Under the pieces are notes generated by a model, which made no database searches, was not told where the DNA came from, and saw nothing but the letters and a program-made list of their open reading frames with translations. The translations under genes and the position numbers were made by a program. Below are positions 2,600 to 22,636 of a stretch of 25,590 nt of DNA, one piece after another. Origin of the DNA: Eledone cirrhosa. Its lineage: Eukaryota. How positions within the stretch are numbered: position 1 is the first letter of the stretch; each line of letters opens with the position of its first letter. The stretch covers positions 1 to 25,590 of the forward strand of contig CAXHJY010000662.1 in the NCBI GenBank assembly GCA_964016885.1. The letters run 5' to 3'.

Positions 2600-2681
2600 C
2601 GGCGATGAATTAGTTTTGCGAGGTTTTTTATATGAAATCGTGTGTCGAAACAGATATTGTTATACTTGGGGAGGGTCATAT

Positions 2682-3101
2682 TTTAAGAAAACCCACAGTA
2701 CCAATAGGAAGTGTATCATATGTAAGGTGAACCCCCGGATAAACTGTAAAACTAGAAACGTAGTCTATAGCATAAGATGTACAGAGGGTACTTGCAGAAA
2801 CATGACAACAACATACATAGGTGAGACAGCTCGTAGCATAGGTGAAAGGATAGACCAACACTGGGGGGAACTAAAAGGACGAAAAAACGGGTCAGTGCTA
2901 TACGAACATGCTAGACAACAACATGACGGTAACATAGACAACATAGAAATTAGAATAATATCTAAACATAGGAATGACCCAGCAGATAGGCAAATCAGAG
3001 AGGCCAGTGAAATAGAAATTAGAAGACCAAAGCTAAACAGAAAGAATGAGTGGAACAACAACAACACCCAAACAAACAACACTGACCTAAGAGAAGTATA
3101 A
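2682..3101 (+). pseudogene. GIY-YIG endonuclease domain of a Penelope-like element (5'-truncated, frame open)
   Basis: [28 protein letters not shown]...[16 protein letters not shown]...LYEH...RQIREASEI...PKLNRKNEW: VVY/YIG motifs, catalytic R, E, N and the CCHH residues typical of PLE endonucleases. Clearly homologous to the C-terminus of the 14564-16057 ORF. Confidence 0.92.
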
Positions 3102-5328: not shown

Positions 5329-6182
5329 AGGTAAAATATAACGTCCGGGAAAGTGAAACTAATTTTTATGACAAGTGAATGTGTTTGTTTTTAAGTATTG
5401 CGTGTGTGATTATTTTTTCTTTTTCTTTTTTTGTGTATTGTGTGTACGGAAAATTAGACGTACCTTATCAACATCCTATACTTACCTTATCAACATCCTT
5501 ATTAGACCGTATAAATAGCTGAAATACAGTTGATCATCTCGCCAAACTTGTTGGCACCAACTCTCTGCCGCCAAAGAAATTCAGCTAAATACGAGGGGAA
5601 TATATCGTCGATTGTCCCATGTTGTCGACGGAGCTTTTTCTTCGCACGGCTCCAAGTGTTCTCTATGAGTTGTGTGTGCACATTAGGGTCTTCAGGATCG
5701 ACAAAGTTCCGTTGGTGCACAACAACATCATGGAGGTAAATGCCACCTTGAATTTCCTCAATATCAGAATAGGAAGCCCAACCATCGGACATGAGTTGGC
5801 TTCCTGGCAAAATCCATTCCTGTATAATGGGGACAAGAGTCTCACGAGAGAACACTTGGAGCCGTGCGAAGAAAAAGCTCCGTCGACAACATGGGACAAG
5901 CGACGATATATTCCCCTCGTATTTAGCTGAATTTCTTTGGCGGCAGAGAGTTGGTGCCAACAAATTTGGCGAGAAGATCAACTGTATTTCAGCTATTTAT
6001 ACGGTCTAATAAGGATGTTGATAAGGTAAGTATAGGATGTTGATAAGGTACGTCTAATTTTCCGTACACACAATACACAAGAAAAAGAAAAAATAATCAC
6101 ACACGCAATACTAAAAAACAAACACATTCACTTGTCATAAAAATTAGTTTCACTTTCCCGGACGTTATATTTTACCTATGCC
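5324..6182. mobile_element. Non-autonomous fold-back derivative of a Merlin (IS1595/ISXO2-like) DNA transposon: two 3' ends, arms 5324-5664 / 5847-6182, 182-bp spacer
   Basis: Ends GGCATAGGTAAAATATAACGTCCGGGAAAG ... CTTTCCCGGACGTTATATTTTACCTATGCC; near-identical ~340-bp inverted arms; transposase C-terminus inside. TSD cannot be read because the element sits in (TA)n. Confidence 0.88.
5502..5846 (-). pseudogene. C-terminal half of an ISXO2/Merlin-type DDE transposase
   Basis: RETLVPIIQEWILPGSQLMSDGWASY...VVHQRNFVDPEDPNVHTQLIENTWSRAKKK...PSYLAEFLWR matches the SDGW..Y, H..FVDP, HTQ.IE..W and YL.EF.WR motifs of Merlin/IS1595-family transposases. The ORF-track N-terminus (5847-5981) is only the antisense of the duplicated arm. 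Confidence 0.9.
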
Positions 6183-6745
<563 letters not shown>

Positions 6746-6936
6746 AGATATACTCAATACATTAACAGAGAAAGATTTAAGCGATACTCCAACCAACTCC
6801 ATCTCACTCAACAAACATTAGGATATACCTAAGTATTATCCCAATTTAGTGTTTGGGGTGCTAACTATACAGTATTGCATGGATACCTGGTTGTATTATT
6901 TTATATGAGACATAATTAAACAAATCTCTCTTTCCT

Positions 6937-7059
6937 TCCATACGATCGTTTCGTTATAAGATTTCTACACGTTGGGATAAATAATGTCCAGGTTATGTAG
7001 AAACTTGTATATAATCCATAGAAATACACACAAGCGGGCCCTTATAACTCATCAGTGGA
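6937..7059 (-). ncRNA. Type I hammerhead ribozyme with canonical core and an 80-nt branched insertion in stem II
   Basis: Minus strand: UCCA-CUGAUGA-GUUAUAAG-[80 nt]-CUUAUAAC-GAAA-CGAUCG-UA-UGGA. 4-bp stem I, perfect 8-bp stem II with G10.1-C11.1, palindromic ACGAUCGU stem III, GUA triplet. Confidence 0.85.
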
Positions 7060-7377
7060 TGCCCATGCAATATCGATATAAAAAAACTACATCGATATTA
7101 ATAATCAGTGATGGTCTCCGTCAGTGTTAGAAGGACAGCTAAATTTGAAAAACCAGTAGTCCTTCAAAAAGAACATTCAAACTGTCCCCAAAGGGGAAGG
7201 CGGGAGGGGGGGGTCATCGTAAAATATAAAATAATATACACGCTGGACATAGAAGCCTGTTAGGTATTTTAACCACGTGTTTAAGAACTCAATTGGATAT
7301 TAAAAAAATAAATATGTTTTTACCATCAATACATATATATATATGTGTGTGTGTATATATATATATATGTACATATA

Positions 7378-11460: not shown

Positions 11461-12907
11461 ATCATCATCATCATCATCATCAGCGTTTAACGTCCGTGTT
11501 CCACGCTTGCATGGGTTTGGACGGGGGTAGTCCCACTTGAGGCAAGAGTGATTGTCTTGCTCGCATAGGACTGTCTGGCAGGTTTTCTACAGTTGGATGC
11601 CCTTCCTAACACCAACCACATTTACAGTGTGGGTCTGGGAGGTTTTTACCGTGTTGCCTACACGGCCACATTACAGCGTGGACTGTGTGTTTTTTGTCGT
11701 GACACCTACACGATCTCATTTGTTTCGGCCTCGATGGCGCGGCACCAACATAACTTTACATAGAACGGGGTGGTGTGGATCGGGTGGGGGTGGTGGGACG
11801 GGGTGTATTTGTTAGAGATGCCTACTGGCTGGAGTAGGTTTTACTATATATTTAGGTAAGGCGGGTCTTCTCTGTTACTGAGTACCGCCAAAGGTCTCGG
11901 TCCAGTGACATTGTCTTGGAGAGGTGTAAGTGTGTGATGTCGGAGTTTATCAGCTCGTCCCAGGTTTTTCTAGGTCTGCCTATTCCGTGACTACCGTCTA
12001 TCTTTATTGCCCTGCACTTTGTTATACAGCTATCGACTTTCATGCGCATCACGTGTCCATACCAACGTAGCCTTCTCTCGAGTAAACAACATCTGATCCC
12101 TCTTATCTCTAATTTATTCCTTAGTTCGTTTATGCTTTGCCGTTCACGTATATTACTGTTACACATCCAGCGGAGCATGCAAGCTTCGTTCCTCTCTAGT
12201 CTGCGTATATCCTCTGCACACAATGCCCAGGTCTCACTGCCATGCAGCATTGCTGTTCGTATGCAGGCATCGTACAACCTGCCTTTCATTTTTAGTGAGA
12301 ACCCTTTAGCAGCTAATAGTGGTATAAGCTCTCTGAACTTTTTCCAACCAGTTCTGACTCTAGCTACAGTACTTTCAGAGCACCCTCCCCCACTGCTGAT
12401 TTTATCGCCCAGGTAACGGAAGCTGTCCACTATTTCTATAGAACCCTCTGCGCAATTGAAAGAGCTAGTAGTTTGTGGGCACTTGCTGCTACTTATTGCA
12501 CCAGAGCACCGGCCACATGTAAAATCTATGTTCTTAGTTAGCCTACCTGTGATCCCACTACATCTTTTATGCACCCATACTTTGCATTTAGGACATAAAA
12601 TGGAGTTTCTACCTACGCCTTTCCTACACACCGAGCACGACCATTTCCCAGAAGGGACCGCCGCCTTGTTTTCTTTCCTACAAACTAGTACTTTGGTCTT
12701 AGCCAGGTTAATTTTAAGTCCTTTTGACTCTAGGCCGTGCTTCCATGTTTGGAATTTCTTCTCTAGCTCGGCCATTGATTCCGCTATGAGTGTCAGGTCG
12801 TCTGCGTATAGGAGTTCCCATGGGCAGCCTGTCTTGAACTCCTCTGTTATGGCCTGAAGGGCAATAATAAATAGTAGTGGACTGAGAACAGAGCCCTGAT
12901 GGACGCC

Positions 12908-12913
<6 letters not shown>
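11461..12913 (-). mobile_element. 5'-truncated RTE-clade non-LTR retrotransposon with 3' UTR and (TGA)n tail
   Basis: RT motifs [24 protein letters not shown] and RTE-type C-terminus ([25 protein letters not shown]). (ATC)7 at 11461-11481 is a (TGA)n tail on the minus strand. Confidence 0.92.
11852..12913 (-). pseudogene. RTE reverse transcriptase C-terminal part (open frame, N-terminally truncated at the TA tract) with inserted C4HC3 finger
   Basis: YADD at 12808-12797; no stops down to 11852. The ORF-track Met and first 24 residues are microsatellite. Confidence 0.92.
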
Positions 12914-14563
<1,650 letters not shown>

Positions 14564-16057
14564 GACCTTAGCAACCTGTGCCCTACAAGACCAGCAAGAG
14601 GCAGACCACCTACCATTACCTCAATGGCCAAGAAAACCCACACAGATAGATGGAACGGGTGGACCAGAGCCATACGGACACCCGAAAACCACGATGAACT
14701 GAAGAAAATGATTGCACATGCGGTAGGGGCCAGCATAAAATTAACCCTTAAGGAACATATGTTCAAATTTAATGGTAAAACATATGCCCAAGAGGAAGGA
14801 GCAGCCATTGGTGTTAGCATTGCAGGCGACATAGCTAACTTATTCATGGTATGGTGGGACAGTAGACTTAAACAAAAACTTAATGAACAATTAGAAGACA
14901 GCTTAACCCTGATAATGTACTCCCGCTACGTAGATGATATAAACATCGTAGTTAAGACACCCCCACTAAAGAACAGTCAGGAACTAGAGAAAAACACAAT
15001 GGAAAGCATCCAGCAAATAGCAAACTCCATCCACCAGAGCATTAGAGTTACTATAGACTACCCAAGTAGACACCCCAACCATCGATTACCTGTACTAGAC
15101 ACAGAGCTCTGGTTAGATACCATTAACAACCAAAAACAAATCCTCCATTCCCATTATGCCAAACCCATGACTTCCAAACATCTGATCCACCGAAACTCGG
15201 CCATTTCGGACCATACCAAAATCAACATACTGATTGCGGATTTGGTACGGGTGATGAGAAATGTGTCCCGCATGTGCAACCCCGAAGAACTAGAGAGACA
15301 CATACAACACTTCATCTACCATATGCAGTTCTCTGGCTACAATCAGAGAGATAGAATCAGAGTGTATAAAGGAGCCAGAACCAAATGGGAAAAAATGGTA
15401 AATAATGACATAAATGGGACCTGCCCCTTGTATAGGAGCAAATTTTGGAATAGAATAGAAAGAACTAGGAACAAGGCCAATAAAATAAACTCATGGTATG
15501 ATAGCAATAAATACCAGAGTGTAATGTTCATCAATACAACCCCTAGAGGCGAACTAGCCTACAAATTTAGAAGGGCCCTAAATAAACATAACCTCAATAT
15601 TAAGATAGTAGAAAGACCTGGTACCTCCGTAAAAACACTTATTAGCAAGACATACCCGTTCCAAAGACCCTCATGTATAGATAAGAAATATATAACCTGT
15701 AAAATAAGCCCCCATATTAACTGTAAAACTAGAAATGTAGTGTATAGCATAAGATGTACTGAAGGACAATGTAGAAACAAAAATATAGTGTACATAGGTG
15801 AGACAGCTCGTAGTATAGGGGAACGAATAAATGAACACTGGCGAGACCTCCAAGATAATAAAGAATCATCTGTGCTCTACCAACATGCTAAGATAGAACA
15901 CAGGGGTAGATTAGAGAGCATAGAAATAAAAATAGAATCCACGCACAGAAAAGACGCAATGTTTAGGCAAATTACAGAGGCAGTAAGCATAAAAGAATTA
16001 AAACCAAAATTAAATAGAAAATATGAGTGGAACAGCAACATCACAACTTACAATTAA
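14564..16057 (+). pseudogene. PLE reverse transcriptase / GIY-YIG endonuclease polyprotein, partial but uninterrupted (497 codons plus stop)
   Basis: [17 protein letters not shown] (RT motif B), YSRYVDDIN (YVDD at 14927-14938), LPVLD, thumb (SGYN), [13 protein letters not shown]...[16 protein letters not shown]...RQITEAVSI...LNRKYEW. RT motif A is not visible, so the copy is 5'-truncated. Confidence 0.93.
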
Positions 16058-16331
16058 GGACAAAATGAAAACACACACACACATAGAACAAACAACTTAC
16101 AATTGAAAACACACACAAAATGAAAACACACACAAGACAAAATGTAAACACACACACACATAGAACAAACAACCAACCAACAATAAATAAATAAACAAAT
16201 AGAAAAATGAACACAAACACACAGACACCCGGATGTGGCACATGCGCAAACTGAGCACACAACACACACACAGAAACAAAATGGCGTAGGATAGAAGAAA
16301 GAAAAGGCACAGAAACGAAGAAGGAATCCCC

Positions 16332-16376
16332 AGTCACTGAAGAGGTCACAGAGTGTGTGACGAAAGGACTATGACT
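16332..16376 (+). ncRNA. Minimal type I hammerhead ribozyme in the PLE pLTR
   Basis: AGUCA-CUGAAGA-G-GUCACA(GAGUG)UGUGAC-GAAA-GGAC-UA-UGACU: 5-bp stem I, 6-bp stem II, CUA triplet. Minimal HHRs in PLE pLTRs are established. Confidence 0.85.
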
Positions 16377-16600
16377 ATATATATAAACAACTATCTGGTT
16401 GTGGAACCAACCAACCAACCAGAAATTTATAAGCTTGTAGATTTGTAAATTTATAAATTTATAAATATATAATAAATTAAAGTGAAAGCAACTGGTGCGT
16501 CTGTTTCTTATTGGCAACATGACCCTCCCAAAGTATAACAATATCGGTTTCAACACACGATTTCAGATAAAGAATCTTGCTAAACAAATTCAGAAACGAA

Positions 16601-17255: not shown

Positions 17256-17875
17256 CGTCTGTTTAGTGCACGGTTTAGCCTGGCCAGCCTATAGCGTCTG
17301 GTTAGTACGGCTTGGCCTGGTCAGCCTATAGCTTCTGGTTAGTGCACGGTTTAGCCTGGCCAGCCTATAGCGTCTGGTTAGTGCACGGTTTAGCCTGGCC
17401 AGCCTATAGCGTCTGGTTAGTGCGCGGTTTAGCCTGGCCAGACTATAGCGTCTGGTTAGTGCACGGTTTAGCCTGGCCAGCCTATAGCGTCTGGTTAGTG
17501 CACGGTTTAGCCTGGCCAGCCTATAGCGTCTGGTTAGTGCACGGTTTAGCCTGGCCAGATTATAGAATCTGGTTAGTGCACGGTTTAGCCTGGCCAGCCT
17601 ATAGCGTCTGGTTAGTGCACGGTTTAGCCTGGCCAGACTATAGCATCTGGTTAGTGCACGGTTTGGTCTGGCCAGCCTATAGCGTCTGGTTAGTGCACGG
17701 TTTAGCCTGGCCAGATTATAGAATCTGGTTAGTGCACGGTTTAGCCTGGCCAGCCTATAGCGTCTGGTTAGTGCACGGTTTAGCCTGGCCAGACTATAGC
17801 GTCTGGTTAGTGCACGGTTTAGCCTGGCCAGACTATAGCGTCTGGTTAGTGCACGGTTTAGCCTGGCCAGACTAT
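17256..17875. repeat. 39-bp minisatellite, ~16 copies (GTCTGGTTAGTGCACGGTTTAGCCTGGCCAGCCTATAGC)
   Basis: Direct head-to-tail repeats with few variant positions. Confidence 0.97.
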
Positions 17876-17940: not shown

Positions 17941-20900
17941 GAGCCAGTCACGAGTGCTAAATACCCAGGTACACACTGTAGAGCTAGTCACGAGTGTTAA
18001 ATACCCAGGTACACTGTAGAGCTAGTCTCGAGTACTAAATACCCAGGTACACACTGTAGAGCTAGTCTCGAGTACTAAATACCCAGGTACACACTGTAGA
18101 GCTAGTCTCGAGTACTAAATACCCAGGTACACACTGTAGAGCTAGTCTCGAGTACTAAATACCCAGGTACACACTGTAGAGCTAGTCTCGAGTACTAAAT
18201 ACCCAGGTACACACTGTAGAGCTAGTCACGAGTGTTAAATACCCAGGTACACACTGTAGAGTTAGTCACGAGTACTAAATACCCAGGTACACACTGTAGA
18301 GCTAGTCACGAGTGTTAAATACCCAGGTACACTGTAGAGCTAGTCTCGAGTACTAAATACCCAGGTACACACTGTAGAGCTAGTCTCGAGTACTAAATAC
18401 CCAGGTACACACTGTAGAGCTAGTCTCGAGTACTAAATACCCAGGTACACACTGTAGAGCTAGTCACGAGTGTTAAATACCCAGGTACACACTGTAGAGT
18501 TAGTCACGAGTACTAAATACCCAGGTACACACTGTAGAGCTAGTCTTGAGTGCTAAATACCCAGGTACACACTGTAGAGCTAGTCTCGAGTGCTAATTAC
18601 CCAGGTACACACTGTAGAGCTAGTCTTGAGTACTTAATACCCAGGTACACACTGTAGAGTTAGTCTCGAGTACTAAATACCCAGGTACACACTGTAGAGT
18701 TAGTCACGAGTACTAAATACCCAGGTACACACTGTATAGCTAGTCTCGAGTGCTAAATACCCAGGTACACACTGTAGAGCTAGTCTCGAGAACTTAATAC
18801 CCAGGTACACACTGTAGAGTTAGTCTCGAGTGCTAAATACCCAGGTACACACTGTAGAGTTAGTCACGAGTACTAAATACCCAGGTACACACTGTAGAGC
18901 TAGTCTCGAGTACTTAATACCCAGGTACACACTGTAGAGCTAGTCTCGAGTGCTAAATACCCAGGTACACACTGTAGAGTTAGTCTCGAGTACTAAATAC
19001 CCAGTTACACACTGTAGAGTTAGTCTCGAGTGCTAAATACCCAGGTACACACTGTAGAGCTAGTCTCGAGTGCTAAATACCCAGGTACACACTGTAGAGC
19101 TAGTCTCGAGTGCTAAATACCCAGGTACACACTGTAGAGCTAGTCTCGAGTGCTAAATACCCAGGTACACACTGTAGAGCTAGTCTCGAGTACTTAATAC
19201 CCAGGTACACACTGTAGAGCTAGTCTCGAGTGCTAAATACCCAGGTACACACTGTAGAGCTAGTCACGAGTACTAAATACCCAGGTACACACTGTAGAGC
19301 TAGTCACGAGTACTTAATACCCAGGTACACACTGTAGAGCTAGTCTTGAGTACTAAATACCCAGGTACACACTGAAGAGCTAGTCTCGAGTACTAAATAC
19401 CCAGGTACACACTGTAGAGCTAGTCACGAATGTTAAATACCCAGGTACACACTGTAGAGTTAGTCACGAGTACTAAATACCCAGGTACACACTGTAGAGC
19501 TAGTCTCGAGTACTAAATACCCAGGTACACACTGAAGAGCTAGTCTCGAGTACTAAATACCCAGGTACACACTGTAGAGTTAGTCACGAGTACTTAATAC
19601 CCAGGTACACACTGTAGAGTTAGTCTCGAGTGCTAAATACCCAGGTACACACTGTAGAGTTAGTCACGAGTACTAAATACCCAGGTACACACTGTAGAGC
19701 TAGTCTCGAGTGCTAAATACCCAGGTACACACTGTAGAGCTAGTCTCGAGTGCTAAATACCCAGGTACACACTGTAGAGCTAGTCTCGAGTGCTAAATAC
19801 CCAGGTACACACTGTAGAGTTAGTCTCGAGTGCTAAATACCCAGGTACACACTGTAGAGTTAGTCACGAGTACTAAATACCCAGGTACACACTGTATAGC
19901 TAGTCACGAGTACTTAATACCCAGGTACACACTGTATAGCTAGTCACGAGTACTTAATACCCAGGTACACACTGTAGAGTTAGTCTCGAGTACTTAATAC
20001 CCAGGTACACACTGTAGAGCTAGTCTCGAGTGCTAAATACCCAGGTACACACTGTAGAGTTAGTCACGAGTACTAAATACCCAGGTACACACTGTATAAC
20101 TAGTCACGAGTACTTAATACCCAGGTACACACTGTAGAGCTAATCACGAGTACTAAATACCCAGGTACACACTGTAGAGTTAGTCTCGAGTGCTAAATAC
20201 CCAGGTACATACTGTATAGCTAGTCACGAGTACTAAATACCCAGGTACACACTGTAGAGCTAGTCACGAGTACTTAATACCCAGGTACACACTGTAGAGC
20301 TAGCCTCGAGTACTAAATACCCAGGTACACACTGTAGAGCTAGTCTCGAGTACTAAATACCCAGGTACACACTGTAGAGCTAGTCTCGAGTGCTAAATAC
20401 CCAGGTACACACTGTAGAGCTAGTCTCGAGTGCTAAATACCCAGGTACACACTGTAGAGCTAGTCTCGAGTGCTAAATACCCAGGGTACACACTGTAGAG
20501 CTAGTCTCGAGTACTAAATACCCAGGTACACACTGTAGAGCTAGTCTCGATTACTAAATACCCAGGTACACACTGTAGAGCTAGTCTCGAGTACTAAATA
20601 CCCAGGTACACACTGTAGAGCTAGTCTCGATTACTAAATACCCAGGTACACACTGTAGAGCTAGTCTCGAGTGCTAAATACCCAGGTACACACTGTAGAG
20701 CTAGTCTCGAGTGCTAAATACCCAGGTACACACTGTAGAGCTAGTCTCGAGTGCTAAATACCCAGGTACACACTGTAGAGCTAGTCTCGAGTACTAAATA
20801 CCCAGGTACACACTGTAGAGCTAGTCTCGAGTGCTAAATACCCAGGTACACACTGTAGAGCTAGTCTCGAGTGCTAAATACCCAGGTACACACTGTAGAG

Positions 20901-21250
20901 CTAGTCTCGAGTACTAAATACCCAGGTACACACTGTAGAGCTAGTCTCAAGTACTAAATACCCAGGTACACACTGTAGAGCTAGTCTCGAGTACTAAATA
21001 CCCAGGTACACACTGTAGAGCTAGTCTCAAGTACTAAATACCCAGGTACACACTGTAGAGCTCGTCACGAGTACTAAATACCCAGGTACACACTGTAGAG
21101 CTAGTCTCGAGTACTAAATACCCAGGTACACACTGTAGAGCTAGTCTCAAGTACTAAATACCCAGGTACACACTGTAGAGCTCGTCACGAGTACTAAATA
21201 CCCAGGTACACACTGTAGAGCTAGTCTCGAGTACTTAATACTCAAGTACA
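17941..21250. repeat. 40-bp minisatellite, ~83 copies (GAGCTAGTCTCGAGTACTAAATACCCAGGTACACACTGTA)
   Basis: Direct head-to-tail repeats; no unique spacers. Confidence 0.98.
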
Positions 21251-22243: not shown

Positions 22244-22636
22244 ATAAAATATTAAACAAATAATGAACAAACAATTCCTTATATTAAACAAAAAAAGTTC
22301 ACTATTTAACGATCGTTTCTAGGGTATATATGTGTTATAATTGGTATGCATATTTAACAGATCTATGTACAAAATTATACAAAATTATACAAATTATCAA
22401 GATTAAATATACATACCTAACTCATATATACGCCGTCTTCAAGACGGCGTATATATGAGTTAGGTATGTATATTTAATCTTGATAATTTGTATAATTTTG
22501 TATAATTTTGTACATAGATCTGTTAAATATGCATACCAATTATAACACATATATACCCTAGAAACGATCGTTAAATAGTGAACTTTTTTTGTTTAATATA
22601 AGGAATTGTTTGTTCATTATTTGTTTAATATTTTAT
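22244..22636. repeat. Perfect palindrome, 196-bp arms, 1-nt centre (22440); unique extension to ~22770 on the right
   Basis: ...ATATACGCCGTCTT-C-AAGACGGCGTATAT...; arms match base for base out to 22244/22636. Confidence 0.95.
22439..22572 (+). ncRNA. Truncated hammerhead-like motif with a ~115-nt rod-like stem II (mirrored on the minus strand in the left arm)
   Basis: AAGA-CGGCGUAUAUAUGAGUUA-GGUAUGUAUAUUUAA...UUAAAUAUGCAUACC-..-UAACACAUAUAUACCCUA-GAAA-CGAUCG-UU. The minus strand reads UUGAAGA across the palindrome centre; the 5' strand of stem I is absent. Confidence 0.5.

What the first reader, a model, noticed from the sequence alone, without database searches (positions are those of the whole stretch)
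6873..7072. Canonical hammerhead with an 80-nt two-hairpin domain inserted in stem II
Seen (minus strand): perfect core, 8-bp stem II, palindromic stem III and GUA site, but loop II is 80 nt and folds into two hairpins: CUUGUGUGUA/UAUAUACAAG (10 bp) and UUUCUACAU/GUGUAGAAA (9 bp). Their G.U pairs form only on the ribozyme strand, which argues for RNA-level selection. A 10-bp inverted repeat (6873-6882 / 7063-7072) brackets the motif and could extend or compete with stem I. Known: PLE minimal HHRs usually have short stem II loops, and loop II is where synthetic aptazymes carry sensor domains. Inference: an HHR variant that length-limited motif searches would miss, possibly with a protein-binding or regulatory domain.
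Basis: partly seen in the sequence, partly recalled or inferred. Interest (0 to 1): 0.78.

Follow-up and report, generated by a model that had tools for sequence, protein, structure and literature searches.

The report
Oversized hammerhead ribozyme in jumping repeat
Thousands of copies of a non-coding jumping repeat in this animal genome carry a hammerhead self-cutting RNA motif with an unusually large, conserved two-hairpin insert, and many shortened copies begin exactly at the predicted cut, so the RNA likely cuts itself in living cells.

Summary
The hammerhead is real and as described, except that the perfect 10-bp bracketing inverted repeat is private to this copy (1 of 16). The motif belongs to an ORF-less, Penelope-like repeat (tandem units 696-998 bp, ending in (TA)n) with at least 3,231 genomic copies. 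All ten subfamilies examined, down to about 40-55% similarity, keep the 78-80-nt insert, with compensatory changes in stems I, II and both hairpins. 5'-truncated insertions pile up at the predicted scissile bond in two sister subfamilies (30 of 46 and 14 of 37 truncations; control site 1 of 4), genomic evidence of cleavage in vivo; the window's own subfamily was too small to test. Published descriptors (loop II up to 10 nt) and Rfam miss it. A sensor or protein-binding role for the insert is untested. Verdict: new variant of the Penelope-type type I hammerhead. The scan had not noted this element before; one note in another genome concerns a small hammerhead with a possible pseudoknot.

The parts
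6745..7330 (-). 5'-truncated copy (about 586 of 767 bp) of a non-coding Penelope-like repeat unit, subfamily F1
   Evidence: 90-94% identity to genomic copies over this span; 767-bp tandem unit in L010/L032; no ORF
7069..7099 (-). Upstream AU-rich hairpin, directly 5' of the ribozyme
   Evidence: predicted in majority sequences of F1-F4 type subfamilies; not tested for covariation
7061..7065 (-). UGGGC, 5' strand of the putative pseudoknot / competing helix
   Evidence: 0.89 identity among 10 subfamily majorities; 90.7% of cells paired with GCCCR
7056..7059 (-). Stem I, 5' strand
   Evidence: 3 of 4 pairs change on both sides
7049..7055 (-). Catalytic core CUGAUGA
   Evidence: sequence; CUGAnGA in all 10 subfamily majorities
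7041..7048 (-). Stem II, 5' strand
   Evidence: 8 of 9 stem II pairs change on both sides
7035..7039 (-). GCCCG, 3' strand of the putative pseudoknot, first nucleotides of the insert
   Evidence: 0.93 identity among subfamily majorities
7004..7034 (-). Insert hairpin A
   Evidence: 6 of 11 tested pairs change on both sides; 0.58 sequence identity among subfamilies
6962..7003 (-). Insert hairpin B (outer stem, internal loop, short inner stem)
   Evidence: 5 of 10 tested pairs change on both sides
6953..6960 (-). Stem II, 3' strand
6942..6952 (-). GAAA core plus palindromic stem III (ACGAUCGU)
   Evidence: no monomer hairpin predicted, self-duplex -12.0 kcal/mol; palindromic centre kept with different letters across subfamilies
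6940..6943 (-). GUA triplet; predicted cut between 6941 and 6940
   Evidence: hammerhead rules; truncations pile up at the equivalent bond in subfamilies F2 and F3
6937..6940 (-). Stem I, 3' strand
6745..6936 (-). 3' domain, about 187 nt from the cut to the fixed 3' end (inferred reverse-transcription start)
   Evidence: 176-190 nt in all 10 subfamilies; ends run into (TA)n or continue with TACTC into the next unit
6873..6882 (-).
   Evidence: 1 of 16
6183..6739 (.). (TA)n microsatellite at the 3' end, the likely insertion target

Best explanation
This is a type I hammerhead ribozyme of the Penelope kind, with a conserved branched insert capping a long stem II, carried by an ORF-less repeat that is likely copied by the reverse transcriptase of an autonomous Penelope-like element and that likely cleaves only part of its transcripts in vivo. 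Shown by sequence: thousands of dispersed copies, head-to-tail units, a fixed 3' end about 185 nt past the cut, (TA)n targets, covarying helices, and 5' ends heaped on the scissile bond. Inferred: tandem units are transcribed as multimers; two ribozymes pair through the palindromic stem III and cut; reverse transcription starts internally at the fixed 3' end; uncut (or religated) templates give full copies, while cut templates give short dead-end copies starting at the cut. The two hairpins most likely act as a folding module that closes stem II and presents GCCCR for a pseudoknot with the UGGGC strand next to stem I; the same pairing can form early as a nested helix that blocks the core, which would keep cleavage slow or dependent on refolding by the retroelement protein. 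The likely helper is a Hydra-clade-like element.
For: Copy number 3,231 vs control 0, plus 51 vs 0 with a one-letter-longer linker. Spacer between cores 94-96 nt in all 10 subfamily majorities, whose pairwise similarity scores run 0.40-0.91. Named-structure test on 43 copies: 84.5% of cells paired vs 74.2% shuffled and 34-43% slid; covariation score 0.393 vs 0.223 shuffled (0 of 500) and 0.07-0.11 slid. RNAalifold on the 10 majorities recovers stem II and both hairpins. Truncations at the cut: F3 30 of 46, F2 14 of 37, matched control site 60 nt downstream 1 of 4; binomial p 3e-13 and 2e-3 at an expected share of 1/6; 7 of 7 cut-site F2 loci fetched had no element upstream. L175, L180 and L184 start at one cut site and read through a second complete ribozyme; L197 runs cut site to cut site. 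A paralogous family with 49-52-nt spacers has a 5-7 bp pairing in the same position with different, compensating letters (read by hand). 3' ends share a (TA)n-or-TACTC signature with the 3' UTR of C-terminal-endonuclease elements bearing a CxCX5C linker, the Hydra-clade motif of PMC8557442.
Against: No cleavage assay and no RNA data. The window's own subfamily gave one uninformative hit in the truncation test. Truncation classes were read by hand from 12 upstream letters; no loci were fetched for F3; microhomology with (TA)n favours junctions at T, and for F2 the excess is not significant at an expected share of 0.25 (p 0.058); the control site gave few truncations overall. The number of pairs with two-sided change (23) did not exceed shuffles (105 of 500 as high), and the covariation reflects few subfamily-level events. 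RNAalifold on the 43 decayed copies found only stem II and a local 5' hairpin, not hairpins A and B. The pseudoknot strands are conserved but show only one two-sided change, in one copy. No copy was found joined to an ORF as its own 3' UTR. Copies were picked by similarity, 43 of 64 representatives by hand.
Confidence: 0.72

Rival explanations
1. The insert is a natural regulatory module: a protein (the helper element's reverse transcriptase or a host factor) binds the hairpins and flips the RNA between a blocked fold (UGGGC/GCCCR nested over the core) and the active fold, gating cleavage.
For: The nested helix has predicted probability 0.88-1.0 and displaces stem II in 4 of 9 subfamily majorities, 0.36 in the window copy. 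Insert length is held at 78-80 nt and the tip of hairpin A keeps a similar AUC-tetraloop-GAU form. A lizard Penelope-like hammerhead cleaved only when its protein was added (PMC11167929).
Against: No binding data. The nested helix is absent (<=0.05) in 3 of 9 majorities. Insert sequence identity is low (0.58 and 0.66). Folding programs cannot score the pseudoknot form. Other families in the genome have long stem II caps of quite different shape.
Confidence: 0.22
2. The unit is a retrozyme: both flanking ribozymes cut efficiently, monomers circularise, and rolling reverse transcription of the circle makes the tandem copies; the insert is part of the self-paired circle rather than of the ribozyme.
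For: Tandem units of 696-998 bp; one cut-to-cut monomer insertion, L197; metazoan retrozymes are tandem, ORF-less and carry type I hammerheads (PMC7229834).
Against: Units are 2-3 times the 170-400 nt reported for retrozymes; most copies are single, 5'-truncated and end at a fixed internal site as Penelope-like elements do; copies starting at a cut and reading through an uncut ribozyme need a linear template. Not exclusive of the best explanation.
Confidence: 0.25
3. The motif does not cleave in vivo; it is a conserved structure at which reverse transcriptase stalls, and the pile-up of 5' ends reflects stalling plus microhomology with (TA)n.
For: Truncations are also more frequent just upstream of the cut than at the control site. 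Published Penelope hammerheads are slow in vitro (PMC4209133) and no reads ending at the cut were found in lizard RNA-seq (PMC11167929).
Against: In F3 the peak is one position wide (30, against 2 and 3 at the other T-start positions); a stall would be expected where the enzyme enters stem I, not where it leaves it (inference); catalytic core letters are conserved at 0.91-1.0.
Confidence: 0.1
4. The insert is a DNA-level accident (foldback or small transposon inserted in loop II) without function.
For: The genome is full of AT-rich foldbacks.
Against: Insert present at near-constant length in all 10 subfamilies with compensatory changes.
Confidence: 0.02

Closest known systems
Minimal type I hammerheads of metazoan Penelope-like elements (Cervera and De la Pena 2014, PMC4209133)
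   Same: Type I topology, short stem I (4-5 bp), long stem II (7-8 bp), palindromic stem III, dispersed truncated copies, predicted dimer
   Different: Loop 2 is 78-80 nt and branched (descriptor maximum 10 nt); conserved UGGGC/GCCCR pairing; no ORF in the unit
Hammerheads of Hydra, Chlamys and PLE-X elements (Craig et al. 2021, PMC8557442, File S2)
   Same: Near the 3' end of (TA)n-targeting elements; extra unpaired or mismatched letters at the base of stem II; PLE-X elements have long loop 2 (about 28-35 nt)
   Different: Longest listed loop 2 is under half this size and is not described as branched; the listed octopus Hydra and Naiad motifs are different sequences
Metazoan non-LTR retrozymes (Cervera and De la Pena 2020, PMC7229834)
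   Same: ORF-less tandem units with a type I hammerhead, thought to be mobilised by Penelope-like elements
   Different: Units 696-998 bp rather than about 170-400 nt; fixed internal 3' end; non-canonical stems; circles not shown
Pseudoknotted hammerheads (Perreault et al. 2011, PMC3088659)
   Same: Watson-Crick pairing between the distal parts of stems I and II in place of loop-loop contacts
   Different: Here the stem II partner sits in a multi-way junction after 8-9 bp and is followed by two hairpins; the pseudoknot is unproven and may be inhibitory
satRPV (cereal yellow dwarf virus satellite) hammerhead (recalled; only the reference title was seen)
   Same: Extra sequence in stem II, a pairing with the stem I region, and need for a double hammerhead (recalled)
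   Different: Plant satellite RNA, type III, smaller insert (recalled, not checked)

Membership tests
Hammerhead ribozyme, type I | CUGAnGA and GAAA cores with NUH triplet, flanked by stems I-III, stem I open | tested here: met
   all 10 subfamily majorities have GUA, GUU or GUC
Hammerhead ribozyme, type I | Helices supported by covariation | tested here: met
   stem I 3 of 4 and stem II 8 of 9 pairs change on both sides
Hammerhead ribozyme, type I | Self-cleavage after NUH | tested here: inconclusive
Rfam hammerhead models | Score above threshold | tested here: not met
   no hammerhead family among 5 hits at E<=10 on 6760-7320
min-HHR of Penelope-like elements | Short stem I, long stem II, palindromic short stem III | tested here: met
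   definition
min-HHR of Penelope-like elements | Loop 2 of 3-10 nt (descriptor) | tested here: not met
   78-80 nt vs descriptor
Penelope-like element (autonomous) | ORF with RT and GIY-YIG endonuclease between pseudo-LTRs | tested here: not met
   no ORF in full units; neighbouring ORFs in 7 extended loci carry other 3' UTRs or none matching
Penelope-like mobilisation pattern | Partial-tandem copies, variable 5' truncation, fixed internal 3' end, AT-rich or (TA)n target | tested here: met
Metazoan retrozyme | ORF-less tandem repeat with one type I hammerhead per unit | tested here: met
Metazoan retrozyme | Unit of about 170-400 nt with canonical stems I (6 bp) and II (4 bp) | tested here: not met
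   696-998 bp units, stem I 4 bp, stem II 8-9 bp
Metazoan retrozyme | Abundant circular RNA | not testable with these tools
   no RNA holder listed
Pseudoknotted hammerhead | Stem I / stem II Watson-Crick tertiary helix needed for fast cleavage | tested here: inconclusive
   complementarity conserved (90.7% paired) but almost no covariation within this family; compensating letters in a paralogous family; no mutational test

The most novel reading that the evidence does not exclude
A natural gated hammerhead: the branched stem II domain binds the helper retroelement's protein and switches the RNA between a core-blocking helix and an active pseudoknotted dimer, timing cleavage within the retrotransposition cycle. 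It would be one member of a hidden class of large-insert hammerheads in invertebrate Penelope-like elements, possibly including elements now reported to lack hammerheads.
Probability: 0.2. Interest if true: 0.85.

Novelty: new variant of a known kind. Interest (0 to 1): 0.62.

Why it matters
First, the role of hammerheads in Penelope-like elements is open: in vitro activity is low, in vivo evidence was absent in 2014 (PMC4209133) and reads ending at the cut were not found in 2024 (PMC11167929). Here genomic insertions themselves record the cut, and the same junction test can be applied to any Penelope family from assemblies alone. Second, more than 3,000 ribozyme copies in one genome are invisible to Rfam and to published descriptors, and other families with 49-78-nt spacers sit beside them, so hammerhead censuses and statements that some clades lack them may be undercounts. 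Third, a natural 80-nt structured domain on stem II with a stem I pseudoknot is a ready test case for natural control of a small ribozyme.

Tried and rejected
Rfam on the whole window gave only microsatellite-driven miRNA noise among the 150 rows shown of 263. RNA runs: no RNA holder listed; three contig runs of one sample and unknown kind were laid and cannot show ends or expression. Search for an autonomous parent by extending 7 loci with nearby RT or endonuclease fragments: neighbours had their own different 3' ends, so adjacency is read as shared (TA)n targeting. Published octopus Naiad and Hydra motifs do not match. Patterns were one letter too long in the linker; this found subfamilies F4, F8 and F9 by accident. 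The structure string had a misplaced bracket and was replaced. Truncation test for the window's subfamily: one hit. The 10-bp inverted repeat as a conserved stem, and G.U strand bias as evidence, were rejected or downgraded. Pfam did not recognise the Penelope endonuclease or YRDD-type fragments. Lunse et al. 2017 and Arkhipova et al. 2017 were not available, so I could not check whether they describe such inserts.

Full report
Observation. Rfam does not see it. The window is (TA)n-rich animal DNA from a 3.0-Gb assembly; the organism is not given, and my guess of a cephalopod is inference from composition only.

The element. The region is a dispersed repeat: 40 scored of 2,390 candidates, the 39 other than the window itself at 94-96%. 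The window copy spans 6745-7330, is 5'-truncated and ends in (TA)n. Full units lie head to tail, 767 bp in this subfamily and 696-998 bp overall, and contain no ORF. Divergent neighbours and pattern searches gave further subfamilies. An exact pattern spanning GGGC, the core and GCCC has 3,231 matches against 0 for its reverse, a lower bound. In all 10 subfamily majority sequences the 3' end lies 176-190 nt past the cut. Of 118 distinct F1/F2/F4 3' ends, 83 run into (TA)n and 26 continue with TACTC into the next unit; for F3, 22 and 6 of 28. This is the partial-tandem, internally primed pattern of Penelope-like elements (PMC8557442, passages and section 11; PMC11167929, parts 1-2 of 4).

The insert is selected as RNA structure. 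From 227 profile hits, 215 were full length, 64 were non-redundant at 93%, and I aligned 43 of these, dropping by hand 21 with deletions, truncations or near redundancy. With the named structure, 84.5% of cells pair (shuffles 74.2%, slid controls 34-43%) and the covariation score is 0.393 (shuffles 0.223, 0 of 500; slid 0.07-0.11). Two-sided changes occur in 3 of 4 stem I pairs, 8 of 9 stem II pairs, 6 of 11 hairpin A pairs and 5 of 10 hairpin B pairs. Against this, the count of such pairs did not beat shuffles (105 of 500), relatedness inflates cell counts, and RNAalifold on these decayed copies recovered only stem II; on the 10 majority sequences it recovered stem II and both hairpins. The core-to-core spacer stays 94-96 nt while hairpin sequence identity falls to 0.58-0.66. 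Stem III changes letters but keeps a palindromic centre, and self-duplexes are predicted at -8.8 to -16.1 kcal/mol against 0 to -0.7 for monomer hairpins, as expected for a dimeric ribozyme.

UGGGC, one or two letters 5' of stem I, is complementary to GCCCR at the start of the insert; both are as conserved as the catalytic core (0.89 and 0.93; 90.7% of cells paired). Conservation without covariation is not proof. Support comes from a separate family with 49-52-nt spacers, where the same two positions pair over 5-7 bp with different letters in four sequence types (read by hand). Stem I/II pseudoknots are known to speed cleavage (PMC3088659, passages). The same pairing can also form as a nested helix that excludes stem II, predicted dominant in 4 of 9 majorities and at 0.36 in the window copy.

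Evidence of cleavage in vivo. If a cut RNA is reverse transcribed, the insertion's 5' end falls on the scissile bond. I searched for the letters just after the cut preceded by a non-consensus letter 12 places upstream. F3: 68 hits, 22 set aside as point changes, indels, internal deletions or ambiguous; of 46 truncations, 30 lie exactly at the cut and 0-3 at each of the ten other positions. F2: 59 hits, 22 set aside; 14 of 37 at the cut, 6 two letters upstream, 0-5 elsewhere; two pairs may be local duplicates; all 7 cut-site loci among the 30 fetched had no element upstream. A control site with the same first letters 60 nt downstream gave 13 hits, 4 truncations, 1 at the junction. Binomial p at an expected share of 1/6 is 3e-13 for F3 and 2e-3 for F2; at 0.25, 1e-8 and 0.058. 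Classes were read by hand. The window's subfamily gave a single hit. Since 24 of the first 100 matches are F3, cut-site copies are only a few percent of the family. Three loci begin at a cut and read through a second whole ribozyme, and one runs from cut to cut, pointing to linear multimers cleaved incompletely.

Mechanism. Shown: structure conservation, tandem units, fixed 3' end, junction peak. Inferred: multimeric transcripts; dimer-dependent, partial cleavage; internal priming by a helper protein; uncut or religated RNA giving full copies and cut RNA giving short ones. The helper is likely of the Hydra clade: flanking C-terminal-endonuclease elements with a CxCX5C linker are common in the loci, their 3' ends show the same (TA)n-or-TACTC choice (7 and 4 of 11), and one such family has its own hammerhead with an enlarged stem II cap. 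No direct link was found. The insert most likely closes stem II and positions the pseudoknot strand; a binding or switching role remains possible.

Context in the genome. A descriptor scan of 843 kb of fetched sequence found hammerhead-like motifs with spacers of 13-18, 26-36, 49-52 and 77-78 nt besides this family, against 0 in a first-order Markov control. Long stem II caps are therefore a trend here, and this family is the largest and the only clearly two-hairpin form seen.

Comparison with the literature. The motif works like the minimal hammerheads of Penelope-like elements (PMC4209133, parts 1-2 of 4 and supplement passages) but fails their descriptor. The longest loop 2 in File S2 of PMC8557442 is about 35 nt; that paper notes eight Naiads with half cores 35-50 nt apart. 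Retrozymes are smaller (PMC7229834, passages). Nine literature searches (listings only), with passages of PMC6765202, PMC10085705, PMC12192606 and PMC3185516, showed no natural hammerhead with a branched 80-nt stem II cap; two relevant papers (Lunse et al. 2017, Arkhipova et al. 2017) could not be read, nor one supplement file of PMC4209133, so absence from print is not established. The scan's own index had nothing for this genome or sequence and one loosely related note.

Verdict. A real, conserved, probably active new variant of the Penelope-type hammerhead in a non-autonomous repeat. Interest 0.62.

Noticed in passing
L003, L009, L035, L048, L054, L082, L165 (e.g. L054:475-616 +): Another hammerhead family with 49-52-nt spacer (stem II, internal loop, hairpin) and a 5-7 bp pairing between the strand 5' of stem I and the internal loop, with compensating letters between sequence types.
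   Followed up: partly
L086:990-1133 +, L173, L182; L031:6230-6374 +, L092, L166: Two related hammerhead families with about 67-92-nt irregular single-hairpin stem II caps; one lies in the 3' region of a YRDD-type, C-terminal-endonuclease Penelope-like element.
   Followed up: partly
window +2287, +3383, +16337, +23067, +24715, -24564, -23808, -23371, -22908, -1643: Further CUGAnGA...GAAA motifs in the window belonging to other Penelope-like families, spacers about 18-37 nt.
   Followed up: partly
window 14560-16400 (+), fragment at 2610-3100 (+): Penelope-like ORF (YVDD reverse transcriptase, weak RVT_1 hit, endonuclease-like C terminus) followed by a short-spacer hammerhead at 16337.
   Followed up: partly
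window 11852-12910 (-) and 14567-14690: LINE-type reverse transcriptase fragment with an embedded PHD-like finger, interrupted by (TA)n and a Penelope-like insertion.
   Followed up: partly
window 5502-5996 (-): IS1595/Merlin-like DDE transposase fragment (PF12762, E 9e-17).
   Followed up: partly
window 17256-17875 and 17941-21250: Tandem arrays: 39-bp unit x 16 and 40-bp unit x 83.
   Followed up: no
window -1888; L014, L069, L072, L074, L088, L120: Repeat family ending in (TA)n with a CUGAnGA downstream of a GAAA-containing stretch; might be a permuted hammerhead or half core.
   Followed up: no
L197:1513-2507 (minus-strand reading): A single unit inserted from cut site to cut site, with a mutated core; one case only.
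   Followed up: partly
window 22399-22481: Near-perfect 40-bp foldback between inverted repeats.
   Followed up: no
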